Source: a virus
Lineage: Duplodnaviria > Heunggongvirae > Uroviricota > Caudoviricetes
Strand: one strand, 5' to 3'
Length of the DNA: 36,127 nucleotides
Virus record (IMG/VR): IMGVR_UViG_2627854066_000004
Location: 1 to 36,127 of that record
Part shown: piece by piece, positions 4,188-36,127 of the stretch
How the letters are laid out: the number at the start of each line of letters is the position of its first letter
Position numbering within the stretch: the stretch's first letter is position 1
Translations under genes and position numbers: made by a program
The notes under the pieces: generated by a model
What the model saw: only the letters and a program-made list of their open reading frames with translations
What the model was told of the DNA's origin: nothing
Database searches by the model: none

Positions 4188-4307
4188 GTAATCATCATGC
4201 ACACACAAAAAAACCGCTTGCCATGCCGCAATCAGTCAGGTTACATTTCTGCTGCACCTCATAAAACGGGTGCCGGGATTCTCAACCTGCTGACAAACGA
4301 AGCGCAC

Positions 4308-4328
4308 AACCGCGCCAGCGGTTTTTTT
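4308..4328 (+). terminator. rho-independent terminator
   Basis: AACCGC-GCCA-GCGGTT stem-loop followed by TTTTTTT. Confidence 0.55.
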
Positions 4329-4340
4329 GTGCGTACTGTA

Positions 4341-4448
4341 TTGCCACGTCTTTTTCGCACACGAATTATGGTGGGGCGTACGGGGCCGACTTCGGTCGGG
4401 CCGGTTTCTTCGTTTGCCGGTGTTGAGAACCCCGTACGTCTCGCCACC
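4341..4448 (+). promoter_or_regulatory. promoter-like element plus structured leader or small RNA upstream of the 4511 ORF
   Basis: TTGCCA-N17-AATTAT at 4341-4369, then a long hairpin at 4371-4447: CGTACGGGG (4377-4385) pairs with CCCCGTACG (4430-4438) and encloses a UUCG-capped stem CCGAC-TTCG-GTCGG (4386-4399). Confidence 0.3.
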
Positions 4449-4510
4449 CCGAGATTCTCAACTCTGGTTGGTGAGTATCCAAAAACTCACAAACGAAGAG
4501 GCCAAACACC

Positions 4511-4741
4511 ATGGCAAACCGCAAACAGCACCGCGCTATCGCGGAGCGTCGTCACATCCAGACTGAAATCAACCGCAGACTTTCCCGCGCATTCCGCGTC
4601 GCTAAAATCATGCACATCAATATGCTGCATGAGCGTAGCTGCGAACTTTCAAACCTCTATTCATCCGCTGTTTTCAGCTATCTGGCGGATGATCTGCGCG
4701 AGCTTCAGCAGCTCATCCAGCAGCAAAACAAACTCCATTAA
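4511..4741 (+). CDS. hypothetical basic protein
   Basis: 76 aa, AAGAGG RBS 9 nt upstream. Confidence 0.45.
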   Translation: MANRKQHRAIAERRHIQTEINRRLSRAFRVAKIMHINMLHERSCELSNLYSSAVFSYLADDLRELQQLIQQQNKLH

Positions 4742-4813
4742 TTCCTGTTCCGGGCCTTTCCTGCACCTTGCGGCGGGAGGCCTTCGCACATCTGTAGTAA
4801 AGAGAATTGCAGC

Positions 4814-5203
4814 ATGATTGACGCTCATGACTTCACAGGATGGGTGCGCACACAGGACACCCGTCTGGCTCCCGTTCTTCAGGGATTATTTGATCTTTAC
4901 ATCCGTGGTCGTGACAACAGAGCACGCACCACAAAACCGGAGAACGCGGACACCCTTTATTTCACAGTAGACGACTGCTACCGCGTGGACTTCACACCAC
5001 ACGGGCTGGCGTTGCACTGCCTGACACCACACGGCGAATCACTGCTGGCGTATTACGACTCCCCGGCCTCCGCATTTGCGGCAATGCTGGCGCATCGCAC
5101 TGCTGGCGGGTGTGCCTCGCTGAGTGAATACACCGCTGAATTTAACCGCCTTTCCGCCATCTTTTCGCAGGAGTGGCAGCGCGTGACGGGATACCAGCCA
5201 TGA
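4814..5203 (+). CDS. hypothetical protein, coupled to A
   Basis: 129 aa; its stop overlaps the gene A start (ATGA at 5200-5203). Confidence 0.55.
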   Translation: MIDAHDFTGWVRTQDTRLAPVLQGLFDLYIRGRDNRARTTKPENADTLYFTVDDCYRVDFTPHGLALHCLTPHGESLLAYYDSPASAFAAMLAHRTAGGCASLSEYTAEFNRLSAIFSQEWQRVTGYQP

Positions 5204-12453: not shown

Positions 12454-14203
12454 CAGAACTCCATAACCGTGAAACGCTCGTTTTCTCCTTCGCCGCCAAT
12501 TGGTTCGTTAATGACAGCAAGCATGGTTGCCCACGCAAGGTCGCCGTGGCTGATCCCCCTCGCGCGGTCCGTTTCGTAAGTGATAAAGCCGCCCGGTGTT
12601 TTCACCTTACGCACGGCGTTAAAGGCCGCGACCAGCTCGCGTTCGGCGCGATCGTATTCCCACCGTCCGGCACGCATTATTTGCAGCATTTTCAGTACCA
12701 GCGACCGTTTGGATGACAGCGTGAAGGTGTACGGAATAGCAGCAGGGAAAAACCGCTTCACTATCTGATAAACAGCCTCCCCGTTCCCGCCCGTCACATC
12801 AATGCCGATGTGTTCCACGTTGTAGCGACACGTGAACTCTTCAATGACTCTGGCCTGTTCTTCAAACTCCAGCCCCTGAACGCGTCGCGTCTCCACCGTT
12901 CGAAAACGGCCACCAGGAACAGCCGGAGGAACCACCACGGACACAGCGCCGCTGTCGCCGTTGCCACTGCTGCCGTTTGCGTCATACCCAATCCATACCG
13001 GACGATTCCCCATCGGGCGGGGAGCAAAAGGTTTCCAGTCTTTCCAGTCGTCGTATCCGTCAACACCGCAGCCAATCAGGATATTCAGGTTAAATGCCGA
13101 TTCCCCTTCGCGGACAAACTCACACATATAGAGATTGCGGAACTCGTCTTCGGTGTTTTCATCACGAATTTCGTCAATATCGGTGTGTTTCCAGCCGTGA
13201 TTAACCACATCTTCCAGCGTGACAATTTGCCGCCACGTCCGGTCAGGGCAGATAAGCCCGTTATGCAGCGTTTTCCAGTCCACAGAAAAACGCTGGCGTT
13301 TATGCGTGGCCTTTTTCTCGTTCCAGCGGTCGCCGTTCCAGTAGGCGTATGCCTCGTGCGTTTCGGTGGATGGCGTGGAGAAGTAGGTGCGCCGCAGTCC
13401 GCTGAGGGTTGCCATAGCGCCAGCCACCTTGCGCAGTTCAGCAAAGCGGCTGACCCAGAAAAATTCATCAAAATAAAAATTGCCCGTGTAGGACTGTGCC
13501 GTCGCAGCAGAAGTACCAAGAAAATGCAGCTCTGCACCGTTGGAGAGGATGATTTTATCGCCCCCTTTCAGCTCCACATCAACTTCAGATGCAGCCTTCT
13601 GAATAATGCTTTTAAACTGGAACGCCTGACGACGCGACGCAGACAAAAAAATCTGGTTACGCTGGTAAGGTTGTGCCACATCGTCACGCAGTGCCATCAG
13701 CAGTGCTTCCTGTGCAAAATACCAGGTCGCCCCAATCTGTCGGGATTTCAGGATCATCCTGTTACGTATCCCGGCTTCCCTGCAAAGGGTCAGAGAGTCA
13801 AACCAGCCCCGCTGATGCCACTCCAGCCTGCTGATGATTTTTTCCCGCAGTGCGGCAATCTGTTCCGGCGTGAAATGATTTTTGAGTTTTTCGCCCGGCT
13901 TTTCTTTCCTGTGGCCGTCGCATCCGGCTGGCCATCATGCAGTTTTTTAAGCTGCCGGGTCAGCAGGTCTATTTCCTTGAAGTCACCACCTGTTTTACTC
14001 TGTTTTTCAGTAAGCTGGATGAGGCGCGCATCGATGGACTGCGTGACACGCTGCACGGGTGGTGTTTCATCCCACTGGTCGCGTTTTTTCCACGCATAAA
14101 TCGTGTTCGGGTTTATTCCCATCAGACGTGATATTTCTGCGGGCGGATAACCCTGCCAGTAAAGTTGCCGCGCACGCTGGCGCACAAAAGCGTCCTGAAT
14201 CAT
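12453..14203 (-). pseudogene. P: terminase large subunit (P2 gpP family), interrupted by an apparent -1 frameshift
   Basis: The N-terminal piece (ORF 13790-14203) and the C-terminal piece (ORF 12453-13757, whose frame stays open upstream) are in different frames. The switch lies in a T-run at about 13899-13909: GGAAAG where GGAAAAG would give a continuous ...ATATGKEKPGEKLKNHF... Confidence 0.75.
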
Positions 14204-15217: not shown

Positions 15218-16270
15218 ATGAATCTGGTGATGTCAGATAATGCCCGTAACAAGCTGGGCTGCTACATGACGCGACAGGCGTCGATTAACAATATCCCGGT
15301 TTCTGGACTGGTATCGCGATTTACCGTGGAACCCGCGGTGCAGCAGCGTTTTGAAAACGCCTCAAAGGATAGCACCGAACTTACAAAAAAAATTAACGTG
15401 ATCGGTGTGACCGACCAGAAAGGCGAAAAAGTCCTCATGGACACCACCGGGCCGATTGCGCGCACAAATACCAGTTATGACGGCACAGATCGCCGCAACC
15501 CGATTAACGCTGTCGACCTGAAGTCCCGTCAGTACCAGTGTGAGCAGGTGAACTACGACACGTTTATTTCGTATCCGCAGCTTGATGCCTGGGCGGCGCA
15601 CAATGACTTCCAGACCCGCATCAGCGCACAGATTGCCCGACAGGTGGCGCTTGACCGCATCATGATCGGCTTTAACGGCACGTCACACGCGGAAAAATCC
15701 AACTTCAGCACCAACAAGCTGCTTCAGGACGTTAACGTGGGGTGGCTGGAGCACATCAGAACCAATGCCAGCGCGCGCGTAATGAATGACGTGACGCTGA
15801 CCTCCCGCAACATGGACAACACCGTGGCGCACGCGGGTAAGTATGCGAATGCTGATGCACTGGTTCAGGACGCACGCTCATCCCTGCTGGATGAATGGCA
15901 CAAGGAAGCTGACGACCTCGTGGTGATTATGGGGCGCAACCTGTTTAACTCGCTGCGTCTGCCCGTGCTGAACAGCATCAGCGGCCAGAATCCCAATGCG
16001 GAATTACTCGCCGGGCAGCTCATCCTGTCATCGCGCACCATTGGCGGGCTGGGTGTGTTCCTTGCGCCGTTCTTCCCGGATGCAACGATGCTGATCACCT
16101 CGTTCAACAACCTGTCGATTTACTGGCAGAAAGGTTCAATGCGTCGCCTGATGAAAGACGAGCCGGAATACAACCGCATCGCCACCTACCAGTCCATCAA
16201 TGACGCTTATGTCGTTGAAGACTATGGCAAGTGCGCGATGGTCACTGGCCTGAAGTTCGCCGACAGCTAA
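15218..16270 (+). CDS. N: major capsid protein, P2 gpN family
   Basis: 350 aa with an AAGGAG RBS, between the scaffold and small terminase genes. Confidence 0.85.
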   Translation: MNLVMSDNARNKLGCYMTRQASINNIPVSGLVSRFTVEPAVQQRFENASKDSTELTKKINVIGVTDQKGEKVLMDTTGPIARTNTSYDGTDRRNPINAVDLKSRQYQCEQVNYDTFISYPQLDAWAAHNDFQTRISAQIARQVALDRIMIGFNGTSHAEKSNFSTNKLLQDVNVGWLEHIRTNASARVMNDVTLTSRNMDNTVAHAGKYANADALVQDARSSLLDEWHKEADDLVVIMGRNLFNSLRLPVLNSISGQNPNAELLAGQLILSSRTIGGLGVFLAPFFPDATMLITSFNNLSIYWQKGSMRRLMKDEPEYNRIATYQSINDAYVVEDYGKCAMVTGLKFADS

Positions 16271-21192: not shown

Positions 21193-22088
21193 ATGCCTGC
21201 CGTTGACCTTTCCCAGTTACCGGAACCCGCCATCATCGCGGAGCCTGACTTTGAGGCAATTCTGGCTGACACAAAGGCCATGATGATTGCGGCTTATCCC
21301 GCCGAACAGCGTGAAGCCGTCTCCGCCGCGCTGGAGCTGGAATCGGAACCCCTGAACGTTATCGCCCAGACAACAGCGTTTCGTGAAATGCTGTTACGCC
21401 AGCGGGTCAATGAGGGGGCACGCGCCTGCATGTTAAGCCACAGCGCCGGGACAGACCTGGACAACCTCGCGGGCAATATGAACACAAAGCGCCTGACCAT
21501 CACTCCGGCAACGGATACCACCGACGCGGTGATGGAGAGCGACACCTCGCTGAGACTGCGGGCGCAGCGGGCGTACGACGGCCTGAGTGTTGCTGGCCCG
21601 TCAGGTGCATACGAGTATTTTGCCCGCAGCGCCAGCGGTCTGGTGCGTGATGCGCGGGCTATCAGCCCGTCTCCGGCAAATGTGACGGTTTCCATCCTGT
21701 CCACTGAGGGCGACGGCACAGCAACGGAGGCGTTGCTTAATACCGTTCGCGCCGTTCTGAATGCAGAGGATACCCGCCCGGTGGCCGACCGCCTGACCGT
21801 ACAGAGCGCCAGAATCGTGACATGGCGGCTGAATGCAAAACTGTACTTTTACCCGGCCCGGAATCCGAACCTATTCTGGCCGCGGCTGAATCGTCGTTCA
21901 GGAAGTGGCTGGCTGAGCAGGGGCTTATCGGTCAGGACGTGGCGTTGTCCGCCATTGCTGCCGCACTGCATGTGCACGGTGTGCAACGCGTGGAGATAAT
22001 CGAACCCACACAGAATATGACCATCAGCGACATACAGGCGGCGCGCTGTGAGTCATTCACCATCAGCGAAGGTGGACGCAATGAGTAA
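21193..22088 (+). pseudogene. J: baseplate protein (P2 gpJ family), interrupted by an apparent 1-nt deletion
   Basis: ORF 21193-21999 loses its protein-like character after ...LYFYP, while the frame of ORF 21822-22088 continues with GPESEPILAAAE... The sequence reads CCCGGCCCGG at 21852-21861 where CCCGGGCCCGG would restore the frame. Confidence 0.75.
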
Positions 22089-25909: not shown

Positions 25910-26387
25910 GCCCTTACGATGTAATTAAACGCAATGTTATGGGGGCGTGTTTCAGATGCTGTGCGAACTGAGCGAGAGGCGTCGAATGTCCATACAGAAG
26001 CACCATATCCTTCAATGATCTCAGTTGGTTGTAAGCCTACTGATAATATAGAGTCAGTTTGACTAAATGGTCCTGAATTAAGCGCATCTTTAAAAAGCTG
26101 AGTACGCCCAAAAGTGCCAACTATATTCTGAATAGCGTCAGACTGTGCAGACAGTAGGTTGCGCCCATTATCAACGCCCCGTCCGTCATCCCAGCCGCGA
26201 ATAAATTCGCCCCGTAAATCCGGTAATTTATTGGTGGGGTAGGCCTTTGCCAGATTGGGGTACATTTCAGAAGAAAATGCTGCGCCGTTACATTTCAGCC
26301 ACCCCGTTGGCAGCGTGGCTGAGGGCCATGGAACGGGCACACCAACGGGCAGCGCAGAGCCTTCCCCCAAACCAACGTTTTCGTCTT
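25903..26387 (-). other. promoterless alternative tail-fibre C-terminal cassette 3 with its crossover site
   Basis: Same conserved ends with a third variable middle; its crossover site 26362-26387 is next to the invertase gene. Confidence 0.7.
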
Positions 26388-26441
26388 TATCCCTACCTAT
26401 ACCAACTATGTATTTTTCACGAAACAAAAAGGATGTTTTTT

Positions 26442-27041
26442 ATGCAAATTGGCTATATTCGTGTGTCAACAAATGACCAGAACACGGATTTACAACGCAA
26501 TGCACTGAACTGCGCAGGATGTGAACTGATTTTTGAAGATAAAATCAGCGGAACGAAATCAGCCAGACCGGGATTGAAAAAACTGCTCAGAACGCTATCA
26601 GAAGGAGATACGCTGGTTGTCTGGAAGCTGGACAGACTGGGCAGAAGTATGAAACACCTGATCACGTTTATTGAGGAATTGCGGAAAAAAGGTGTTAATT
26701 TCCGTAGTCTGACGGACAGCATTGACACATCAACACCCATGGGGCGTTTCTTTTTTCACGTCATGGGGGCTTTAGCCGAAATGGAACGTGAATTAATTGT
26801 AGAGCGTACACTGGCCGGGCTGGCAGCAGCACGCGCACAAGGACGCATTGGCGGACGTCGCCCGAAGTTGACAAAAGAACAACACGAGCAAATAGCGAGG
26901 CTGATTAAAAACGGTCATGACAGGAAACAACTGGCGATCATTTACGACATCGGCATATCGACGATTTATCGTTATCACCCTGTAGGCGATATACAGGCTG
27001 AAGAAACAACCAGGCAGACTCAGGAAAATGAAAACCGCTAA
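26442..27041 (+). CDS. site-specific DNA invertase, serine recombinase of the Hin/Gin/Cin/Pin family
   Basis: 199 aa; N-terminus MQIGYIRVSTNDQNTDLQ with the catalytic Ser, and a C-terminal HTH (GISTIYRY); AAGGA RBS. Confidence 0.9.
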   Translation: MQIGYIRVSTNDQNTDLQRNALNCAGCELIFEDKISGTKSARPGLKKLLRTLSEGDTLVVWKLDRLGRSMKHLITFIEELRKKGVNFRSLTDSIDTSTPMGRFFFHVMGALAEMERELIVERTLAGLAAARAQGRIGGRRPKLTKEQHEQIARLIKNGHDRKQLAIIYDIGISTIYRYHPVGDIQAEETTRQTQENENR

Positions 27042-27059
27042 TCTGACCATTAGCGGTTT
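27032..27059. terminator. bidirectional stem-loop between the convergent invertase and U genes
   Basis: AAACCGCTA-N10-TAGCGGTTT with T-runs on both strands. Confidence 0.5.
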
Positions 27060-27067
27060 TGCGTTAA

Positions 27068-27562
27068 TCAAAACAGCCCTTTAACGGAGCTGGCCGCGCT
27101 GTTAAGGGATGATGTGACCTTATCTTTGAAGCCGGACAGCATATCACTGAACGATGAGGATTGCAGGCGCTCCCGCAAATCCTCATCACAGCGTTCAAGA
27201 GTCAGTGAAAATTCTATCTTTTTCGCCTTACCGTAGCGATCAAACTCGGAGCGGGTCGTATTCGTTTCAGTCAGTACATACATGCCGTAAATCTGCCCGA
27301 CACCATCAATCAGAGGCCAGGGGCGTCCTGTATATGCCTGCGTGGTCAGCAGCGAAAGCGACACTTCGCCACCTGTAATTTCAGGATAAAGCACGCCAGA
27401 AAGCACGATGCGATCATCACCTGCACCGATATACTGCCAGCTTGCTGAGCGGTTTACGCGCTCATTTTTCACATGCCGCCAGCTTTTGTTTTGCTGTAAC
27501 TGCTGATGCGGCAGTGTGCGCAGCTCAAAAACAAACATGCCGTAGATCATCATCATGGCCAT
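27068..27562 (-). CDS. U: tail protein, P2 gpU family
   Basis: 164 aa, last gene of the minus-strand tail block. Confidence 0.75.
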   Translation of the reverse strand: MAMMMIYGMFVFELRTLPHQQLQQNKSWRHVKNERVNRSASWQYIGAGDDRIVLSGVLYPEITGGEVSLSLLTTQAYTGRPWPLIDGVGQIYGMYVLTETNTTRSEFDRYGKAKKIEFSLTLERCDEDLRERLQSSSFSDMLSGFKDKVTSSLNSAASSVKGLF

Positions 27563-27568
27563 GACTCC

Positions 27569-30412
27569 TCAATCTTTATCGTAAAAACTGCCACGCCCGG
27601 CACGGGCGCGCCGTTCCGTTTCTGCCCTGACCATTTCACCGACCAGTTTCGCCAGTTCGCGGGGATTCTGCGTAACAACGTTATGCAGATGAACATGAAT
27701 TTCACCACCAAATCCGGAGGCAACAGGCTCCCGGTTACGGGAAGTTACAGGAACTGATGCCACTGGAGATCGTATGGCCTCCGCCACCGGGCGGGAGCTG
27801 GCCGCAACAACAGGGACCAGCGCCGGAGGCAGCGGAGCCGGGACCACGGGGGTGATATTAATTGCGGGGGCAGGCTTACCGACCTGCGCAATCTTCCGCT
27901 CCTGCCACTCCCCACGAACAGCAAGTGCGCGGGGCAGGTTCTTAAAGACAATATCGCCGGGGCCAATGCGTTTTTTCGTCTCATCAACCAGCTTACCTGT
28001 GTTATCAGCAATTTTGCTGAGTCTGCGTAGTGTACCGGTATTGCTGTCTGTGAGCGGTTTGTTGTCTTTGGGTTTATCACCTCCGGTGCCATTGCCATTT
28101 TCCACAGGCTTCGGCGGATTGATTTTCGCCAGGTCCCCCTGAAGCAAGGCAACCTTGTCCTGAAGAATGGCCGCACGCTGTGCGTCTTCGATTTTCTTTC
28201 TCGCCCTTTCCGCTTCATCCGGAAGCACACCGAGTTTTTCAAGTATCCACGCCAGCGTATCCAGCAACATTTTTGCGGGCGTCAGAACAAGCTGTAACGC
28301 ACCGCCAAGAACGTTACCGAATATCTCGCCAGCACTGGTACATTTATCCAGCGTTTCCTTGCTGGACTCCATCGGTGACAGCAGCGATTTAAACCAGTTA
28401 AACACCTGACTTATCCCGCTTCCGATTGCGTCAAAAACAGGACCAAACCGTTCAAAGGTTTCGCGCAACGGAGCCAGCCGTTCCATAATCCCACTGAACA
28501 CCCCGGCATAAAACGCCTTGATGGGTTCCCAGTATTTCCAGATGAGAACCGCCGCAGCCACAAACGCGGCAACAATCAATCCGACCGGACTGAACAGCGC
28601 CCCGATAGCGCCACCCAGCAACGAGATGGAACCTGTTACCATTCCCCATAGTGCTGGCAGCACCCTGACGACATTCATTGATCCTGTCAGGAGGGAAAAA
28701 CCAAGACGCAGTTTTGCCAGCGGACCAGCAAGCACACCAATAGCCAGCGACAACGAGCCAATCGTTGCAGTCATTGCCAGCAACGCACCGCCTGCAATCA
28801 GTAGCTGGCGCGTCAGTGCAGGATGCGCCTGCGCCAGCGCCGTCACCTTTGAGACCACCTTCGTCAGCCACTGCGTGACAGAACGCAGCGGACCGTCAAT
28901 CAGATCGGCAATGCGGATACGCAGCCCTTCCCATGCACTGCCGAGTGATTTCAGATCGCCGTCAAGGTTGTTGGCCATAACCTTTGCCGTGCGTTCAGCC
29001 TCACCGCGCGCGCCTTCAAGTTCTTTTCTCAGTTTAGGTAAGGAGCCGTCACCTGCCGCATCAACGAGGGCCATAAATGATGTGAAAGCCTCTTCTCCGG
29101 CAATGTCCTTAAAGAACGATACCCGGTCAACTTCCCCGTATTTGCGGGTGGCTTTATAAAGGTCGGCCAGCAAATCCTCCATCGGGCGCATTTTGCCGTT
29201 CGCATCAGAGACGGACACGCCCAGCTCTTTCAGAGCTTCTGCCGCCGCCTTTGGCGGTGATGCCAGACGAGCCAGGCTGGCACGCATTGCCGTCCCGGCA
29301 TCACTCCCTCTGATACCCATATTCGCCAACACGCCAGCCATCGCTGCGGCCTGCTCCAGCGATATTCCCAGCTTACCCGCTACCGGACCTGCATATTTCA
29401 TGGTTTCGCCCAGTGCGCGAAGGTCAGTGTTGGTACGGGTAAACGCTGCGGTGAGTGTGTCACCGACCCGGTCCATCTGGTCAGCAGAAAGGCCGAACTG
29501 CGTCAGGATGTTTGAGCCAATATCCGCCGTCTCGCCGAGATCCATACCGCCAGCCGTTGCCATGCTCAGCACACCGGGAAGCGCAGCCTGAATGGCCTGT
29601 GGTGTGAAGCCAGCCATTGCAAGAAATGCCTGTCCACTGGCGGCATCTCCAGCGGTGAACTGCGTTTCAGAGCCAAGTTTTAACGCCTGCTCACGCAGCG
29701 CCTTAAACTGCGGGCTGTTCTGGTCGATTCGCGTCAGCGCCTGAACGCGGGACATCTCTTTCCCGAACCCGATCGCAGGCTGCAAAAAACGCCCGGCAGC
29801 ATAGCCGCCCGCCGCTACCGCACCAATTGCCAGCGCACCACCTGTTTTCAGTTTTTCCGCTGTTTCCTGCGCGCGCGAATACCGCTCACGCGCCCGCGTT
29901 ACACGCGCAAGCGCCTGCCGTTCGCGTTCAAGCTGGTTGTTGTATTGTTCGGTGCGTCTGATGGCCTGCTGGATGGTGTTATCGCTGCCTGTCAGGGAAA
30001 TGCCGTGGCGTTTCAGCTCTCCGCCAAGCTCCCGCATTTTCTGAATTTCCCGTGTGCGCGATTCATTCAGGCGTTCAAGCCGGGTGCTTAACTGCTGCAT
30101 CAGCTTTTGTTGTTTTTCGCTGAGCACTGTCCCCGTGCGTTGTAACTGATTAAGGGCGTTAAGCTGGCGTCGTGCTTTCACGATGCCCGCATCCGCTTTA
30201 CTGACAGCGTCACGGGCGCGCTCAAATGAACGCGCCTGACGCTCGAGATTTTTGATCGCCCCCTGCGTTCGCTGGATGGAGTCACCAAACTGCCCCATCA
30301 GGCGGCGGGCGTTTTCGGCAGGCCGGGTCAGCCTGTCAACGGCGCTGAAAGCGACCCGGATATCAAGAGTCTTCATTGTCTGCATTCCCGCTGCGAAGTG
30401 CCGCCCGCTCAC
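27569..30412 (-). CDS. T: tail tape measure protein, P2 gpT family
   Basis: 947 aa, Ala/Gly-rich with coiled regions and hydrophobic segments; start uncertain (GTG at 30412 or internal ATGs at 30385 or 30376). Confidence 0.85.
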   Translation of the reverse strand: MSGRHFAAGMQTMKTLDIRVAFSAVDRLTRPAENARRLMGQFGDSIQRTQGAIKNLERQARSFERARDAVSKADAGIVKARRQLNALNQLQRTGTVLSEKQQKLMQQLSTRLERLNESRTREIQKMRELGGELKRHGISLTGSDNTIQQAIRRTEQYNNQLERERQALARVTRARERYSRAQETAEKLKTGGALAIGAVAAGGYAAGRFLQPAIGFGKEMSRVQALTRIDQNSPQFKALREQALKLGSETQFTAGDAASGQAFLAMAGFTPQAIQAALPGVLSMATAGGMDLGETADIGSNILTQFGLSADQMDRVGDTLTAAFTRTNTDLRALGETMKYAGPVAGKLGISLEQAAAMAGVLANMGIRGSDAGTAMRASLARLASPPKAAAEALKELGVSVSDANGKMRPMEDLLADLYKATRKYGEVDRVSFFKDIAGEEAFTSFMALVDAAGDGSLPKLRKELEGARGEAERTAKVMANNLDGDLKSLGSAWEGLRIRIADLIDGPLRSVTQWLTKVVSKVTALAQAHPALTRQLLIAGGALLAMTATIGSLSLAIGVLAGPLAKLRLGFSLLTGSMNVVRVLPALWGMVTGSISLLGGAIGALFSPVGLIVAAFVAAAVLIWKYWEPIKAFYAGVFSGIMERLAPLRETFERFGPVFDAIGSGISQVFNWFKSLLSPMESSKETLDKCTSAGEIFGNVLGGALQLVLTPAKMLLDTLAWILEKLGVLPDEAERARKKIEDAQRAAILQDKVALLQGDLAKINPPKPVENGNGTGGDKPKDNKPLTDSNTGTLRRLSKIADNTGKLVDETKKRIGPGDIVFKNLPRALAVRGEWQERKIAQVGKPAPAINITPVVPAPLPPALVPVVAASSRPVAEAIRSPVASVPVTSRNREPVASGFGGEIHVHLHNVVTQNPRELAKLVGEMVRAETERRARAGRGSFYDKD

Positions 30413-30901
30413 GCCAGCTAACCACTTCGCCGGGCGTCATCATGAAGATTTCGGCGGGCGACCAGTTAAAAATGGCGGCGATATCTGCCACCAGATCTTC
30501 GATGTGCTCAAAGCACACCAGGGTGATTACGCTGCCGTCTCCTGCACGCTCTTCGCGCCAGAGTCTGGCTCGCTCATAAAATTTACAGCCACAGCGCACA
30601 ACTGAATAAAATCGCGTGACGACATTTTTTTAATCATCACTTCATCCAGTCGCGGTGATGTCACGCGTGACAGCAGCGTAAACATGGATTCCGCTTTCAG
30701 ATTCAGCACATCAGACAGCGACAGACCACGCAGGGATCCAGCCTGTTCAATAGCCCCGGTGATCTCCACATACGTGATTTTTTCGCCACCACGCTCAATT
30801 GGTCGGGTCAGTTTTACGCCACGTTCGACAGCCATATCCTCACCTGCCGTCACATCATCCACCACGGTGTTATTCCGGGTTTCAGTATCGATGTCTTTCA
30901 T
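30363..30901 (-). CDS. tail assembly chaperone E+E' fusion made by programmed -1 frameshift
   Basis: Seven-A run on the coding strand (plus-strand T-run 30625-30631); the -1 frame continues open to 30363 and overlaps the T start, as for P2 E/E' and lambda G/GT. Confidence 0.6.
30527..30901 (-). CDS. E: tail assembly chaperone, P2 gpE family
   Basis: 124 aa with an AAGGAG RBS; contains the A7 slippery run near its 3' end. Confidence 0.7.
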   Translation of the reverse strand: MKDIDTETRNNTVVDDVTAGEDMAVERGVKLTRPIERGGEKITYVEITGAIEQAGSLRGLSLSDVLNLKAESMFTLLSRVTSPRLDEVMIKKMSSRDFIQLCAVAVNFMSEPDSGAKSVQETAA

Positions 30902-30956
30902 CAGTTTTCTCCTTTTCAGTCAGAGGCGACGCACTGCGCCGCCTGCATATTACTTA

Positions 30957-31469
30957 TCAGCCAAGCCCGAGCGCGGAACGGATACGGTCAGGCACAATGT
31001 CCTTGCCGTCCTTCCGGTAGATGTGGTTCAACAGGTCGATTTCCCACAGCGGGCGATCGTTAACGCTCAGCTTGTAGTAGGTGTTTTTGACAGCGTAAGT
31101 GTGTGATGTGGCTTCGCCCTGTTTGGCTTCCCCCATATCAATTTCCGTCACACGTCCGCGCATCTCGATTTCATACAGATCGCTTTCTGCATCGGTGTAG
31201 TATTCACCCGCAAAACGCAGCAGCGTGCCGTCAATCGTGCCGCCATATTTAAGGAACAGCGCACGAACAGCTCCCCCCATGACAAAACTCGCATCAAGCG
31301 CGGAGTCGTCCAGACCGAGATCAATACTTACCGCCCCCATCATGCCACCACCACGATAGCTGTCGGTTTTGCGCGTCAGTTTGGGCGGCGTGACGGATGT
31401 CACTTTACCCACTTCGTTTTCACCATCCACAAACAACGTAAAAAAGCGAAGATGTTTTGGTACAGCCAT
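30957..31469 (-). CDS. FII: tail tube protein, P2 gpFII family
   Basis: 170 aa immediately downstream of the sheath gene, with ATGA coupling. Confidence 0.85.
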   Translation of the reverse strand: MAVPKHLRFFTLFVDGENEVGKVTSVTPPKLTRKTDSYRGGGMMGAVSIDLGLDDSALDASFVMGGAVRALFLKYGGTIDGTLLRFAGEYYTDAESDLYEIEMRGRVTEIDMGEAKQGEATSHTYAVKNTYYKLSVNDRPLWEIDLLNHIYRKDGKDIVPDRIRSALGLG

Positions 31470-32653
31470 CAGGCACCTCCCAGCACCGCAAATGCGGGAC
31501 CAAAGAATTCATCAGTAAACGTCTGGTAAAGCTCCATGTCTTCCAGCGGGGGAACAGGCGTATATTTGTAGCGAATACGCACACGTCCCTGACGTAAATT
31601 CGTGGTGCCGTTATCCACCACGTCATACCAGCACTCCGCACCAATCAGTTTCCCGGCAGTAACCAGCGAATCCAGTTTTGCCCTGATGGCGCTGATAACA
31701 TCCTTCACGTTCGCAGGTGTCAGTGGACTGTCGATGGTTTCAAACTGCGCTTCCGCAATTGAATCAGCCAGCACCTGTGCGGTTCGGGTATACACCTCAA
31801 AGATGTAGGCGTTCGTTTCCGGTGTGCGGTTGCCCCAGAAGCGGAACCCGTTGCGACGAATAATGGTCGTGATTTCTTTGTTGTTGAGACTGTTGGCATC
31901 GCTGTCTTCGGCCTGCAACGACCAGAACACATGCCTGGACATCCCCAGCACATTTTTAACCGGAACGTTGGACAGCGATTTGTGCCAGCCCTGTTCATGG
32001 TCAATGTACGCACGAAGGCCGCACGCATAGGCAGGCGCGGGGAACGTTTCGTTTTCGCCACTTTTCGGGTTGTAGGCGATGAAGTCCGGCCATAAGAGCA
32101 TCACTTCACGTTCGTTGAATTTCTGGCGGTAGGTAATCGCTTCAGCCATCGTGTTACAGCCGTGACATGAGGCATACACAAATGCGCGCAGTTTACCCGC
32201 AATCACGCACAGGGATTTTGTCACCGCCTCCGTGTCCAGCTCCGGCGCGGCCAGAATACGCGGACGGTATCCGATGCTTTCATCCTGCTCTGCAACAAGC
32301 AGCGCATACATCCCCGTATAGCTGCCGTCATCCTCAGAACCACCGATAACCAGTTGATCCTGCGTCTTTTCGTCTTCTTCTTTGTGTTCAGCCACGCGAA
32401 CGACGATCACCTTTGTGCTCACCTGGTCTGCGATGGCCTTAAGCGCACGATAAAGCGTCCCCGTTGTTCCGCATTTTCCCAGCACGTCATTGACGCGGGT
32501 CAGCAGTGTGGGCTTGTTCAGCGGGAACAGCTTCGCGTCCGCATCATCCGCCGTTGCCACGATACCGATAACGCTGGAATCAACATCGTTAATCGCTGTT
32601 ACCAGGTCGGTATTTTCCGTAACACGGGCACCATGAAAACGAGTTTCACTCAT
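31469..32653 (-). CDS. FI: tail sheath protein, P2 gpFI family
   Basis: 394 aa, first gene of the minus-strand tail block. Confidence 0.9.
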   Translation of the reverse strand: MSETRFHGARVTENTDLVTAINDVDSSVIGIVATADDADAKLFPLNKPTLLTRVNDVLGKCGTTGTLYRALKAIADQVSTKVIVVRVAEHKEEDEKTQDQLVIGGSEDDGSYTGMYALLVAEQDESIGYRPRILAAPELDTEAVTKSLCVIAGKLRAFVYASCHGCNTMAEAITYRQKFNEREVMLLWPDFIAYNPKSGENETFPAPAYACGLRAYIDHEQGWHKSLSNVPVKNVLGMSRHVFWSLQAEDSDANSLNNKEITTIIRRNGFRFWGNRTPETNAYIFEVYTRTAQVLADSIAEAQFETIDSPLTPANVKDVISAIRAKLDSLVTAGKLIGAECWYDVVDNGTTNLRQGRVRIRYKYTPVPPLEDMELYQTFTDEFFGPAFAVLGGA

Positions 32654-32810
32654 AGCTTCAGCCCCTTGTATCCGTTAAATGATTCGGCAACAATCATCAC
32701 CCACCACGCGCGTAATCTCACCCCTGCGCCGTTCTCCCGCCACGGCGACAACAAAAAGCAGTAACCCCCTCCGCACGCACATGCGACCATGCCACACAGG
32801 GAGGGAGCAG

Positions 32811-33920
32811 ATGACCGACACCACCATGCAATTGCTCAGTCAAGGCACAGACCCTGTAAAAATGCCGGATTTTGATATTCTCGCGGAGGGTAAAACGCTG
32901 TCCGGCGTGGCAGAGCGCCTGATGAGCCTGTCGCTGACCGACAACCGGGGATTTGAGGCAGACCAGCTCACCATCACGCTGGATGATGCGGATGGTCAGT
33001 TGCAGCTACCGCCACGGGGCGCGCGCCTGAAGGTTCTCATTGGCTGGAAAGGCGAACCGCTGACAGAAAAAGGCACTTACATTGTTGATGAAATCGCTCA
33101 CGAAGGACCGCCGGACAGGCTGACTGTTTCGGCCAGAAGCGCAGATTTTCGGGATGAATTTAACGTTAAACGTGAGGTGTCCTGGCATGATGTGACCGTT
33201 GAGCGTGTGGTATCCGCCATCGCTCATCGGTATGGTCTGAAACCGCAAATCAGCGAAATGCTGATGGATATCGAAATCGACCACGCCGACCAGACCGAAG
33301 AAAGCGACATGTCCTTCCTTACGCGCATGGCGGAAATGCTGGGCGCAATCACCACGGTAAAAAGCGGCAATCTGTTATTCATCATGCCAGGTGGTGGCGT
33401 GAACGCACAGGGCCAGCCGTTGCCCTCGTTCGCCATTACACGCAGCAGCGGCGATCGCCATCAGTTCCGTATTGCTGACCGCGAGGCTTATACGGGGGTA
33501 CGCGCCTACTGGCTTGATCTTAATTACGGGAAAAAGAAAAAAGTCAGCGTAAAACGCCGTAAACCGCCAAAACCCAAAAAGGAGAAAAGCAGCAGCCGTG
33601 AAGGTGATTATATGGAAGGCGCGGAAGGCAATGTGTTTGTGTTACGCAAGACTTATCAGAACGAGCAGGCAGCAAGACGCGCAGCGGCGGCAAAGTGGCA
33701 GCAGCTACAACGCGGAGCCGCAGCGTTCTCCATCACGCTGGCGCGTGGACGTGCAGAACTCTACCCCGAAATGCATGGCACGGTAACAGGATTTAAAAGC
33801 GAGATTGATAATCAGGACTGGATTATTGCAAAAGCGGAGCACTCTATTGATAACAGTGGCTTTACCACGCAGCTTGAGCTTGAAGCAAAAATCCCGGAAT
33901 GGATAGCAGAAACAGAGTGA
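32811..33920 (+). CDS. D: tail protein D (P2 gpD family)
   Basis: 369 aa from ATG 32811 with a GGGAGGGAG RBS; followed by ogr as in P2. Confidence 0.8.
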   Translation: MTDTTMQLLSQGTDPVKMPDFDILAEGKTLSGVAERLMSLSLTDNRGFEADQLTITLDDADGQLQLPPRGARLKVLIGWKGEPLTEKGTYIVDEIAHEGPPDRLTVSARSADFRDEFNVKREVSWHDVTVERVVSAIAHRYGLKPQISEMLMDIEIDHADQTEESDMSFLTRMAEMLGAITTVKSGNLLFIMPGGGVNAQGQPLPSFAITRSSGDRHQFRIADREAYTGVRAYWLDLNYGKKKKVSVKRRKPPKPKKEKSSSREGDYMEGAEGNVFVLRKTYQNEQAARRAAAAKWQQLQRGAAAFSITLARGRAELYPEMHGTVTGFKSEIDNQDWIIAKAEHSIDNSGFTTQLELEAKIPEWIAETE

Positions 33921-33962
33921 GCAACTTAGAATAGCGGCAGCACCACGTTAAGGGAGGTCGCT

Positions 33963-34223
33963 ATGTTCCGTTGTCCGCTTTGTGGCGCATCTGCCCGTAT
34001 CCGCACCAGTCGTCCGGAAAATGATTCAAACACCGTGCGGCAAAAGTATTACCAGTGTAACAATCTGGAATGCGGCGTATGCTTCTCAACACTGGAAGCT
34101 TTCCATAAATTCACATCGAAACATGCCTCCGGCGTTCACTCTTCAGAAGGTATCCCGTGGCATGAGCTGCCAGCTTCACACAGGGGAAACAATCAGATGA
34201 GCTTGCCTTTATCTCAGAATTAA
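33963..34223 (+). CDS. ogr: late-gene transcription activator, Ogr/Delta zinc-finger family
   Basis: N-terminus MFRCPLCGASARIRTSR...YYQCNNLECGVCF with four Cys in the Ogr arrangement. Confidence 0.8.
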   Translation: MFRCPLCGASARIRTSRPENDSNTVRQKYYQCNNLECGVCFSTLEAFHKFTSKHASGVHSSEGIPWHELPASHRGNNQMSLPLSQN

Positions 34224-34554: not shown

Positions 34555-34689
34555 GGAAACCGCGACGGGGGAGCAATCCCCCGTCAATCGGTTGCCAGGG
34601 TATGGTCGAAGTGGCACCCAAATTTAAATTGAGGCCCACCAGTAAGAGTGGTGGGTTTAACGCTTATTTAAATTTGAAAGGAACTCTTT

Positions 34690-34986
34690 ATGAGTGAAAT
34701 GGTATTTTGTCGCGGATGCGGCAAGGAAATACATAAAGATGCCACATCCTGCCCCAATTGTGGAGCACCTCAAAGAACAGCAAGTTCAAAAAGCAGAATG
34801 ACAGCCGCACTACTGGCTTTCTTTTTAGGTGGTCTTGGTGCACACAAATTTTATTTAGGTAAAGTGGGGCAAGGATTCCTTTACCTTATTTTTTGCTGGA
34901 CATTCATTCCGGCAATCGTGGCATTTATTGAGTTTTTTATCTATCTATGCACCTCTGATGAAGACTTTGCCCGCAAATATGGCTAA
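34690..34986 (+). CDS. zinc-ribbon plus TM2-domain membrane protein
   Basis: 98 aa; CRGCG...CPNCG zinc ribbon followed by two hydrophobic helices (AALLAFFLGGLGAHKFYLG...). Confidence 0.6.
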   Translation: MSEMVFCRGCGKEIHKDATSCPNCGAPQRTASSKSRMTAALLAFFLGGLGAHKFYLGKVGQGFLYLIFCWTFIPAIVAFIEFFIYLCTSDEDFARKYG

Positions 34987-35012
34987 TGCCTAGTGGGCGA
35001 ATCAGAATGACA

Positions 35013-35047
35013 AACCCGCAGCGTAAAAACTGCGGGTTTTCTTTTTG
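35013..35047 (+). terminator. rho-independent terminator
   Basis: ACCCGCAG-CGTAAAAA-CTGCGGGT followed by TTTTCTTTTTG. Confidence 0.65.
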
Positions 35048-35096
35048 TCACCCTCACAAATGAGGGTAACACCACTCATAAGTAATAGGCATAACA

Positions 35097-35131
35097 GATC
35101 GATGCAATAAATCCGATCGATAAAAACGATC
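35097..35131. promoter_or_regulatory. cluster of three GATC (Dam) sites within GATCGAT repeats upstream of the com-like gene
   Basis: GATC at 35097, 35115 and 35128, each in the context CGATCGAT, 50-80 bp upstream of the com-like start. Confidence 0.45.
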
Positions 35132-35178
35132 GATTTGTTATCATATCGGCAGCAGTAACCACACAAGAGGTGCCGCAA

Positions 35179-35376
35179 ATGACGCAAAATGTACGATGCA
35201 AAAATTGCAACAAACTACTTGCCCGCGCCTCATTTCACTACATTGAAATAAAATGTCCGCGCTGCAAAACACTTAACCAGATAACGAGAGCCATCGAGCA
35301 CCCCACACACATGAGGAGTTATGACCGTGGGGATCGCAATCCAGCACCAACCAGCACATACACCGGAACACACTAA
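35179..35376 (+). CDS. com: Com-like zinc-finger protein (phage Mu Com family translational regulator)
   Basis: 65 aa; RCKNCNKLL...IEIKCPRCK matches the Mu Com zinc finger nearly residue for residue as recalled; AGAGG RBS; the 3' end overlaps the downstream methyltransferase start. Confidence 0.7.
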   Translation: MTQNVRCKNCNKLLARASFHYIEIKCPRCKTLNQITRAIEHPTHMRSYDRGDRNPAPTSTYTGTH

Positions 35377-36127
35377 GGTTTATCAGACTGACAATGCCAC
35401 GCTCTGTCGTGGGAATGCGCTGGAAATATTGCCGCTGATTGAGCCAGAAAGCATTGATGCCTTAATCACTGACCCGCCTTACAGTTCGGGTGCGACACAC
35501 AAGGCCGGACGCACCAACCAAGGCAGCCATGCAAAATATCTGAACGGCGAGAACCTTCACCGCTTTGATGGGTTCGCGGGTGAAAACATGGACGCCCGTT
35601 CGTGGGCTTACTGGACACAATTATGGATGGCACAGGCACACCGCGCAGTCAGGCCGGGCGGTTATGCCCTGGTATTTACTGACTGGCGACAACTACCAGC
35701 TTTAACCGATGCGTTTCAGGCCAGCGGCTTTACATGGCGCGGCATCATTGCGTGGAACAAGGGGAGGGGGTCACGAACACCCCATACGGGGTATTTCAGG
35801 CATCAGTGCGAATACATCGTCTGGGGCAGCAAAGGCCATTTAGATAAATCGCCTTCGGGGCCGTTCGACGGCTGCATGACGTACCCGGTTATCCCGTCAA
35901 AGAAAATGCACCCGACCGGAAAACCAGAAGAACTAATGGCGGAACTGGTCAGGACTGTGAATAGTGGCGGAACAGTCCTTGATCCTTTTATGGGGTCAGG
36001 GACAACGGGTGTGGCTGCACTGAAAGCAGGGCGAAAATTTATTGGTATAGAAACCAGTGATCATTATTTTGAGGTAGCAGCGCAGCGGCTTCGGGGGACT
36101 ATTACCACAACCATTTCGGCTACATAA
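35321..36127 (+). CDS. DNA methyltransferase, beta-class amino-MTase (N6-adenine or N4-cytosine)
   Basis: 268 aa; catalytic motif ITDPPYS near the N-terminus and the AdoMet-binding motif DPFMGSGTTGVAA near the C-terminus (motif IV before motif I). Stop codon is the last three bases of the window. Confidence 0.85.
   Translation: MTVGIAIQHQPAHTPEHTKVYQTDNATLCRGNALEILPLIEPESIDALITDPPYSSGATHKAGRTNQGSHAKYLNGENLHRFDGFAGENMDARSWAYWTQLWMAQAHRAVRPGGYALVFTDWRQLPALTDAFQASGFTWRGIIAWNKGRGSRTPHTGYFRHQCEYIVWGSKGHLDKSPSGPFDGCMTYPVIPSKKMHPTGKPEELMAELVRTVNSGGTVLDPFMGSGTTGVAALKAGRKFIGIETSDHYFEVAAQRLRGTITTTISAT

What the first reader, a model, noticed from the sequence alone, without database searches (positions are those of the whole stretch)
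30363..30901. Conserved programmed -1 frameshift in the tail assembly chaperone (E/E')
A run of seven A residues near the end of E lets a -1 shift extend into a frame that stays open to 30363 and overlaps the tape measure start, matching the conserved chaperone frameshift of tailed phages (P2 E/E', lambda G/GT). It shows the tail module is functional in design despite lesions elsewhere in the element.
Basis: partly seen in the sequence, partly recalled or inferred. Interest (0 to 1): 0.35.

Follow-up and report, generated by a model that had tools for sequence, protein, structure and literature searches.

The report
P2-type tail chaperone frameshift, relocated site

Summary
The window is a P88-like (Xuanwuvirus, Peduoviridae) prophage. 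On the minus strand, gene E (30901-30527) lies between the tail tube and tape measure genes. A -1 frame is open from 30629 to 30363. It encodes the Pfam 'Phage P2 GpE' domain and overlaps the tape measure start by 14 nt. The E/E' frameshift design is therefore real and conserved: E' is in the -1 frame in 83 of 86 loci, the window included.

The proposed slippery site is probably wrong. The A7 run (30631-30625) is in the AAA_AAA_A phase, which is not a canonical heptamer. It exists only in two sister clades. A -1-frame stop separates it from E' in the P88 clade and in 4 of 109 window-type sequences.

The site that aligns with P2's mapped T_TTT_TTG is the canonical heptamer A_AAT_TTT (30584-30578), one codon upstream of the P2 position. 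In this clade TTG has become ATG. Sequence variation among 98 close relatives collapses at this heptamer rather than at A7. Published E. coli reporter data show A_AAU_UUU shifts at least as well as U_UUU_UUG once a stimulator is present.

This is an ordinary, unannotated member of a known recoding family. Interest is low.

The parts
30527..30901 (-). Gene E, the tail assembly chaperone short form. 124 aa, ATG at 30901, TAA at 30529-30527. An AGGAG Shine-Dalgarno sequence lies at 30913-30909, just outside this range.
   Evidence: ORF. PHROG phrog_103 'tail protein' E=2e-35. Pfam PF10109 Phage_TAC_7 gives 19.7 bits, below its 25-bit cutoff. 96.8% identical to P884B11 E. Lies between the tube gene (30957-31469) and the tape measure gene.
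30578..30584 (-). Most likely slippery heptamer, A_AAT_TTT. Zero-frame codons are GTA AAT TTT ATG (V106 N107 F108 M109). The tRNA-Asn would re-pair AAU to AAA and the tRNA-Phe UUU to UUU.
   Evidence: Only in-phase X_XXY_YYZ heptamer in E. Its Phe codon aligns with F84 of P2's mapped T_TTT_TTG. Invariant in 109 of 109 window-type sequences. Reporter values for AAAUUUU are 0.07 / 0.36 / 11.4 % with no, IS911 or IS3 stimulator.
30363..30578 (-). E' coding part in the -1 frame: 71 codons (YERARLW...NADNEDS) plus TGA at 30365-30363. The predicted E+E' fusion is 108 + 71 = 179 aa.
   Evidence: Open frame. BLASTP of the predicted fusion against P2 E+E' gives E=6e-27 and the alignment runs across the junction. 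83 of 86 loci, the window included, keep the -1 relation. The slip site to DDLVAD motif distance is 27 codons in 43 of 47 distinct sequences.
30527..30577 (-). Dual-coding overlap: the E tail in frame 0 and the E' N-terminal linker in frame -1 (conserved W..ER.GDG).
   Evidence: Only 1 distinct substitution in 51 nt among 98 close relatives, against 21.9 per 100 nt upstream in E and 25.5 per 100 nt in the E'-only part. Fisher p=3e-4 and 7e-5.
30384..30491 (-). Conserved E' C-terminal domain (Pfam PF06528 'Phage P2 GpE').
   Evidence: E=2.9e-12, 46.3 bits against a cutoff of 23, on residues 47-82 of the -1-frame translation from 30629.
30625..30631 (-). It encodes Lys-Lys in ATT AAA AAA ATG. 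Probably not the programmed site.
   Evidence: Phase AAA_AAA_A, with a -1-frame TAA at 30632-30630. Present in the P88 clade too, but cut off there from E' by TGA. The nonsense variant C>T at 30614 occurs in 4 window-type sequences.
30516..30518 (-). GTG used by RefSeq/PGAP as the start of a free-standing 51-aa 'GpE family phage tail protein'. Probably not a real start.
   Evidence: Annotation. No Shine-Dalgarno sequence upstream. 37 of 47 distinct homologous sequences have no start codon at all in this stretch.
27569..30376 (-). Tape measure gene T. Its ATG at 30376 overlaps the end of E' by 14 nt.
   Evidence: Pfam PF10145 E=7e-59. P884B11 T residues 1-935 align to 30376-27572.

Best explanation
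Proposed mechanism:
1. Ribosomes translating E mostly stop at TAA 30529-30527 and release the 124-aa chaperone.
2. A minority slip back one base on A_AAU_UUU (30584-30578), with tRNA-Asn in the P site and tRNA-Phe in the A site.
3. These ribosomes read on in the -1 frame to TGA 30365-30363.
4. The product is a 179-aa E+E' fusion (...AVAVNF|YERARLW...). Its C-terminal PF06528 domain is the counterpart of P2 E'.

By analogy with P2 E/E+E' and lambda G/GT, both forms would coat the tape measure protein. The rarer long form would recruit the tail tube protein, and the fixed ratio of the two would be needed for tail assembly.

What is shown and what is inferred:
- Shown here: gene order, frame relation, homology, position and conservation of the heptamer, and where dual-coding constraint begins.
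- Inferred: that slippage happens at this heptamer, its frequency, and the protein functions.
For: - Gene order and domains: sheath, tube, E, -1 ORF, tape measure, gpU.
- The -1 ORF carries PF06528 at E=2.9e-12.
- The predicted fusion aligns with P2 E+E' across the junction, E=6e-27.
- P2's annotated and published site is TTTTTTG (PMC3091744). Its Phe codon aligns with window F108.
- Every one of the 83 surveyed loci with E' in the -1 frame has a canonical heptamer within this 10-nt spot. 50 have T_TTT_TTN. All 33 that lack it have X_XXT_TTY one codon upstream: 19 C_CCT_TTC and 14 A_AAT_TTT.
- In 41 of 84 loci the -1 frame is closed 10 or fewer codons upstream of the Phe codon, which pins the entry point.
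- 37 of 47 distinct homologous sequences have no start codon between the slip site and the E' domain.
- Among 98 window-type sequences the heptamer is invariant, and variation drops to 2 per 100 nt from the heptamer to the E stop.
- Sharma et al. 2014, Table S3, gives percent frameshifting with no stimulator / IS911 stimulators / IS3 pseudoknot. AAAUUUU is 0.07 / 0.36 / 11.4. UUUUUUG is 0.12 / 0.25 / 0.77.
- Phage PhiSM of C. rodentium has an identical overlap zone (L002) and forms plaques (PMC6456863).
Against: - No fusion protein or junction peptide has been observed for this phage group.
- No conserved downstream RNA structure was found. The local fold is not better than shuffles, z=-1.3. 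Without a stimulator, AAAUUUU is near background in reporters (0.07%).
- The window clade has lost P2's T_TTT_TTG, so efficiency could differ from P2's roughly 10% (a figure I recall from Christie 2002; that paper was not held).
- The host element carries frameshifts in terL and gpJ, so the gene may no longer be expressed in a productive cycle.
- The loss of T_TTT_TTN paired with an upstream heptamer rests on only two independent lineages.
Confidence: 0.8

Rival explanations
1. One reading: the -1 shift happens on the A7 run (30631-30625). This could be P-site slippage of tRNA-Lys on A_AAA, or RNA polymerase adding one A. The fusion would read ...VMIKK|NVVTRFYSVVRCGCKFYER...
For: - The -1 frame is open from 30629 in the window and in most window-type sequences.
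- tRNA-Lys is shift-prone, and A-runs support both ribosomal and transcriptional slippage (Sharma 2014).
Against: - The phase is AAA_AAA_A, so only the tetramer A_AAA applies: 0.125% without and 0.256% with a pseudoknot.
- No relative outside the two Xuanwuvirus clades has an A-run here.
- The P88 clade has the same A7, but TGA blocks the -1 frame.
- 4 of 109 window-type sequences carry C>T at 30614. This change is synonymous in E and nonsense in the -1 frame.
- 4 of 5 distinct substitutions in the A7-to-heptamer interval are synonymous in frame 0, and each of those 4 is non-synonymous or nonsense in frame -1.
- The fusion would lose the segment with the invariant residues D97, L101, V106 and F108.
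- A7 runs occur at chance frequency in the window.
Confidence: 0.07
2. E' is a separate small gene translated from its own start. This could be GTG 30518, as RefSeq annotates the 51-aa 'GpE family phage tail protein', or GTG 30599. No frameshift would be needed.
For: PGAP and phage records annotate it this way. PHROG phrog_1756 was built from such ORF calls.
Against: - There is no Shine-Dalgarno sequence before either GTG.
- 37 of 47 distinct homologous sequences have no ATG, GTG or TTG between the slip site and the domain.
- The -1-frame peptide upstream of GTG 30518 is conserved (W..ER.GDG), at a fixed 27-codon spacing.
- The overlap zone upstream of that GTG is under dual-coding constraint.
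- P2 E' is annotated, and reported, as a frameshift extension of E.
Confidence: 0.05
3. The arrangement is a decaying relic. Because the prophage has lesions, the E/E' signal in this copy is no longer functional and its intact look is only recent inheritance.
For: 1-nt deletions split terL and gpJ in this window. The terL deletion is in none of 1082 complete E. coli genomes that hold this segment.
Against: The E/E' region is identical to that of plaque-forming PhiSM over the overlap zone. FI, FII, E, T, U and D are intact. The two lesions sit in homopolymer runs and could be sequencing errors.
Confidence: 0.08

Closest known systems
Bacteriophage P2 E / E+E' programmed -1 frameshift (FETUD operon; Christie et al. 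2002 as cited in PMC3091744; NC_001895 annotation)
   Same: - Homologous proteins: 31% identity, E=6e-27 across the junction.
- Same gene position between FII and T.
- Same -1 direction.
- E' lacks its own start.
- E' overlaps the T start (8 nt in P2, 14 nt here).
- The slip occurs at the same conserved Phe codon region.
- No evident downstream RNA structure.
   Different: - The heptamer is A_AAT_TTT, one codon upstream of P2's T_TTT_TTG. The Leu codon TTG is ATG here.
- E is 124 aa against 91 aa, because of an N-terminal extension.
- The linker between the slip site and the E' domain is 27 codons against 17.
- The overlap with the E tail is 51 nt. In P2 the stop codon ends 21 nt after the heptamer.
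- The FI-FII-E-T-U block is on the strand opposite to D and ogr.
Phage P88 and other Xuanwuvirus members (P884B11, PhiSM, 503458, 520873)
   Same: 86-98% nucleotide identity over the region. Same genes and the same A_AAT_TTT heptamer. PhiSM and P884B11 share the window's exact site.
   Different: P88 itself keeps the longer A_AAT_TTT_TTG, with both heptamers, and has TGA in the -1 frame after the A7 run. None of these records annotates a frameshift.
Phage lambda G / GT tail assembly chaperone frameshift (Levin 1993; Xu 2004, 2013, 2014, as summarised in PMC5009743)
   Same: Same logic: two overlapping ORFs between the major tail and tape measure genes, and a low-frequency -1 shift that sets a fixed ratio of short to long chaperone.
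   Different: I know of no sequence similarity between the two, and no P2-lambda comparison was run here. The slippery site differs (G_GGA_AAG in lambda). Lambda is a siphovirus. The resemblance is an analogy only.
A-run -1 frameshift and slippage sites of IS elements and dnaX (A_AAA_AAG, A_AAA_AAA, IS1 A6C)
   Same: The window's A7 run looks superficially like these motifs.
   Different: Wrong phase (AAA_AAA_A), no stimulator found, not conserved, and the downstream -1 frame is not under selection.

Membership tests
P2-type E/E' (tailed-phage tail assembly chaperone -1 frameshift) | Two overlapping ORFs located between the tail tube (major tail) gene and the tape measure gene | tested here: met
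   Tube 30957-31469, E 30527-30901, -1 ORF down to 30363, T from 30376.
P2-type E/E' (tailed-phage tail assembly chaperone -1 frameshift) | The downstream ORF is in the -1 frame relative to the upstream ORF, and this is conserved in relatives | tested here: met
   Frame offset computed. 83 of 86 loci, the window included, are -1. Two exceptions are T7 and T8 length variants at the slip run and one (L006) is a mis-assigned match.
P2-type E/E' (tailed-phage tail assembly chaperone -1 frameshift) | An in-phase slippery heptamer X_XXY_YYZ inside the overlap | tested here: met
   A_AAT_TTT at 30584-30578, the only one in E. It is a measured frameshift-prone motif in E. coli.
P2-type E/E' (tailed-phage tail assembly chaperone -1 frameshift) | The downstream ORF has no translation start of its own | tested here: met
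   No Shine-Dalgarno sequence before GTG 30518 or 30599. 37 of 47 distinct homologous sequences lack any start codon there.
P2-type E/E' (tailed-phage tail assembly chaperone -1 frameshift) | Sequence homology to P2 gpE and to the E' extension | tested here: met
   BLASTP against P2 E+E' gives E=6e-27. PF06528 matches at E=2.9e-12, above its cutoff. The E part reaches only 19.7 bits on PF10109 (cutoff 25), but matches phrog_103 at E=2e-35.
P2-type E/E' (tailed-phage tail assembly chaperone -1 frameshift) | The same slippery sequence as P2 (T_TTT_TTG) | tested here: not met
   The window reads AAT TTT ATG. The T6G is lost and replaced functionally by A_AAT_TTT one codon upstream. This feature defines the P2 site, not the family.
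P2-type E/E' (tailed-phage tail assembly chaperone -1 frameshift) | A fusion protein is actually made at a low fixed ratio, and both forms are needed for tail assembly | not testable with these tools
   Only indirect support: phage PhiSM, with the identical site, is viable.
A-run slippage sites (IS element / dnaX type) | An A-run in X_XXZ_ZZN phase (A_AAA_AAN), with a conserved and selected downstream -1 frame | tested here: not met
   Phase AAA_AAA_A. -1-frame stops in the P88 clade and in 4 window-type sequences. The substitution pattern is neutral or deleterious in the -1 frame.

The most novel reading that the evidence does not exclude
In this very common E. coli prophage clade the chaperone frame may have two entry points. 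One is the ancestral spot, now A_AAU_UUU instead of U_UUU_UUG. The other would be a clade-specific A7 run 47 nt upstream that became usable when a synonymous change removed the -1-frame TGA. Two E+E' isoforms would result. The evidence here argues against this second entry but cannot exclude a minor contribution: nonsense variants occur in the interval, the -1 frame shows no selection there, and the A7 phase is wrong.
Probability: 0.05. Interest if true: 0.4.

Novelty: new member of a known kind. Interest (0 to 1): 0.18.

Why it matters
- **Annotation.** The region is present in about a quarter of complete E. coli genomes (1366 of 5426). In the sampled records E' is annotated as a free-standing 51-aa gene, with no frameshift join. 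Placing the slip site correctly gives the real 179-aa product.
- **Plasticity of the slippery heptamer.** Across P2-like phages the heptamer at one fixed spot can be exchanged among U_UUU_UUN, C_CCU_UUC and A_AAU_UUU, while the recoding event itself is kept.
- **Limits.** No new biology is implied. The chaperone frameshift is a textbook feature of tailed phages.

Tried and rejected
- **A7 as the slip site.** Rejected as the main site on phase, lack of conservation, -1-frame stops in relatives and the substitution pattern.
- **Independent initiation of E'.** Rejected.
- **Downstream stimulatory RNA structure.** The window fold has z=-1.3 after the heptamer and z=+0.7 after A7. RNAalifold on 20 diverse homologues predicted no pairs. 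The local hairpin GCCAG-ACU-CUGGC, 8 nt after the heptamer, is not conserved in P88. No upstream Shine-Dalgarno-like stimulator was seen by eye.
- **Solved structures and NCBIfam.** No informative hits.
- **Genome-contig scan with E.** Only 2 loci were returned and they were not used further.
- **Christie 2002.** Not available in the held library. P2 facts come from the NC_001895 annotation and from PMC3091744.
- **Structure prediction.** Not attempted. The fusion is not a contiguous window translation, and the question did not depend on it.
Full report
**What is there.**

On the minus strand the window encodes a P2-like contractile tail block:

| Gene | Coordinates | Evidence |
|---|---|---|
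| Sheath | 31469-32653 | Pfam sheath domains |
| Tube | 30957-31469 | PF04985, E=2e-45 |
| E | 30527-30901 | 124-aa ORF |
| Tape measure | 27569-30376 | PF10145, E=7e-59 |
| gpU | 27068-27562 | Pfam gpU family |

- The region is 97-98% identical to Xuanwuvirus (P88-like Peduoviridae) phages such as P884B11 and Citrobacter phage PhiSM. It is 86% identical to P88 itself.
- E starts at ATG 30901, behind an AGGAG, and stops at TAA 30529-30527.
- The -1 frame is open from 30629 to TGA 30365-30363. It carries Pfam PF06528 'Phage P2 GpE' at E=2.9e-12.
- The tape measure ATG is at 30376, which gives a 14-nt overlap with E'.
- An 88-codon open -1 run is rare in this window's long ORFs, P about 0.006.

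**Is the A7 run the slippery site?**

The A7 run (30631-30625) reads ATT AAA AAA ATG, so its phase is AAA_AAA_A. A -1-frame TAA sits at 30632-30630. This is not the X_XXZ_ZZN phasing for which A_AAA_AAA is efficient. Only the tetramer A_AAA applies, and it gave 0.125% without and 0.256% with a pseudoknot in E. coli reporters (Sharma et al. 2014, Table S2).

- A7 runs occur 13 times in the window against 9.8 expected.
- The 15 codons between A7 and the next candidate site stay open by chance with P about 0.42.

**The homologous site.**

- P2's frameshift is annotated and published at TTTTTTG, in GGT TTT TTG (PMC3091744).
- Fusion proteins from the window, P88, phiT5282H, ST16-OXA48phi5.4 and P2 were aligned. 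P2 F84 falls on window F108, in an invariant V-x-F column.
- The window has GTA AAT TTT ATG at that place. This is the canonical heptamer A_AAT_TTT (30584-30578), and it is the only in-phase heptamer in E.
- I fetched 80 related loci from IMG/VR and five phage records. With the window itself that makes 86 loci, and E' is in the -1 frame in 83 of them.
- Two exceptions carry T7 or T8 instead of T6 exactly at the slip run. The third (L006) was a mis-assigned match.
- Every surveyed locus with E' in the -1 frame has a canonical heptamer within this 10-nt spot. 50 have T_TTT_TTN at the P2 position. All 33 that lack it have a heptamer one codon upstream: 19 C_CCT_TTC in a Klebsiella clade and 14 A_AAT_TTT in the window clade.
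- In 41 of 84 loci the -1 frame is closed within 10 codons upstream of the Phe codon, and in five it is closed immediately before it. The entry point is therefore tightly bounded.

**Direct evidence against A7.**

- An A-run at this position exists only in the window clade and the P88 clade. In the P88 clade, CGT GAC puts a TGA in the -1 frame between A7 and the T-run.
- Of 109 window-type sequences (IMG/VR loci plus E. coli genomes), all keep AAT TTT ATG.
- Four of them, including E. coli strain 8479, have C>T at 30614. This change is synonymous in E and creates TGA in the -1 frame.

Distinct substitutions among 98 ungapped window-type sequences:

| Segment | Substitutions per 100 nt |
|---|---|
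| E upstream of A7 | 21.9 |
| A7-to-heptamer interval | 12.5 |
| Heptamer | 0 |
| Heptamer to E stop (51 nt) | 2.0 |
| E'-only part | 25.5 |

- In the interval, four of five substitutions are synonymous in frame 0. Each of those four is non-synonymous or nonsense in frame -1.
- The overlap is depleted against E upstream (Fisher p=3e-4) and against the E'-only part (p=7e-5). The interval does not differ from E upstream (p=0.21).
- Dual coding therefore starts at the heptamer, not at A7.
- A shift at A7 would also remove the conserved E segment holding the invariant residues D97, L101, V106 and F108.

**Is A_AAU_UUU slippery enough?**

Sharma et al. 2014, Table S3, gives percent -1 frameshifting with no stimulator, IS911 stimulators and the IS3 pseudoknot:

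| Heptamer | No stimulator | IS911 | IS3 pseudoknot |
|---|---|---|---|
| AAAUUUU | 0.070 | 0.355 | 11.4 |
| UUUUUUG | 0.118 | 0.247 | 0.765 |
| CCCUUUC | 0.193 | 1.39 | 23.2 |

- That paper names R_RR.U_UU.Y motifs as frameshift-prone.
- The window's heptamer is thus at least as good as P2's proven one once any stimulator acts.
- I found no conserved downstream structure. This agrees with reports for P2 and its Burkholderia relatives.
- PhiSM has an overlap zone identical to the window's (L002) and is a plaque-forming temperate phage (PMC6456863). The site that lacks T6G is therefore compatible with a working phage.

**Independent initiation.**

- RefSeq annotates E' as a separate 51-aa 'GpE family phage tail protein' that starts at GTG 30518.
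- That GTG has no Shine-Dalgarno sequence.
- 37 of 47 distinct homologous sequences have no start codon anywhere between the slip site and the conserved domain.
- The -1-frame linker (G.W..ERGGDG) is conserved at a fixed 27-codon spacing.
- The frameshift reading is much better supported.

**Mechanism.**

- Shown here: the layout, the homology, the heptamer and the boundary of dual-coding constraint.
- Inferred: a small share of ribosomes slip -1 on A_AAU_UUU and make the 179-aa E+E' (...AVAVNF|YERARLW...).
- Inferred by analogy with P2 and lambda G/GT (PMC5009743): both forms bind the tape measure, and the E' domain recruits the tube protein.

**Context.**

- The FI-FII-E-T-U block faces the opposite way to D and ogr. 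This is the native Xuanwuvirus arrangement.
- FI, FII, E, T, U and D are intact.
- terL and gpJ each carry a 1-nt deletion in a homopolymer run. The terL deletion is found in none of 1082 complete E. coli genomes that hold this segment.

**Verdict.**

This is a real, conserved and unannotated instance of the known P2-type chaperone frameshift, with the slip site reassigned to 30584-30578. It is a new member of a known kind and of low interest.

Noticed in passing
window 12456-14203 (minus strand), deletion between 13886 and 13887: The terminase large subunit gene is split by a 1-nt deletion in a T run (T5 here, T6 in P884B11). None of 1082 complete E. coli genomes holding this segment shares the deletion. 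It could be a private mutation or a sequencing error.
   Followed up: partly
window 21193-22085 (plus strand), deletion between 21851 and 21852: The baseplate gene gpJ is split by a 1-nt deletion (C3 here, C4 in P884B11). One tail gene is therefore damaged, although the FETUD block is intact.
   Followed up: partly
L019:1772-1778 and L035:1742-1749 (IMG/VR relatives): The slippery T run is T7 in L019, which puts E and E' in one frame, and T8 in L035. Homopolymer length varies exactly at the slip site. Whether this is real or an assembly error is unknown.
   Followed up: no
window 30363-30518 and homologous loci L089-L092: RefSeq/PGAP annotates E' as a free-standing 51-aa 'GpE family phage tail protein' (WP_000333503.1), with no frameshift join, in all four E. 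coli genomes fetched and in every row listed. The region is present in 1366 of 5426 complete E. coli genomes.
   Followed up: partly
window 26247-34220: The FI-FII-E-T-U block lies on the strand opposite to D and ogr, next to a Hin/Gin-type DNA invertase gene. The arrangement is the same in P884B11, so it is native to Xuanwuvirus, although inverted relative to P2's FETUD operon.
   Followed up: partly
L088 (NC_049391.1) 4229-5266, against window 15218-16270: The reference phage record P884B11 has a broken major capsid gene: a 173-aa ORF on the wrong strand plus a 162-aa fragment. The window's 350-aa ORF is intact.
   Followed up: no
L002 / OR565851.1 (phage PhiSM of C. rodentium): The PhiSM paper's electron microscopy legend describes a long non-contractile, siphovirus-like tail. 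The genome nevertheless encodes P2-type sheath and tube genes nearly identical to the window's.
   Followed up: no
window 34600-36127: The right end carries cargo that E. coli genome records annotate as a DNA methyltransferase, a TM2-domain protein and a Com-family regulator. It is 100% identical in several E. coli strains.
   Followed up: no
L004, L042-L063 (Klebsiella Reipivirus-like clade): This clade also lost T6G (CCT TTC TTG) but keeps C_CCT_TTC one codon upstream. That motif is among the more efficient XXXUUUN motifs in E. coli reporters: 23% with the IS3 pseudoknot, the highest of that group with that stimulator. Its -1 frame is open for 64-66 codons upstream of the site.
   Followed up: no
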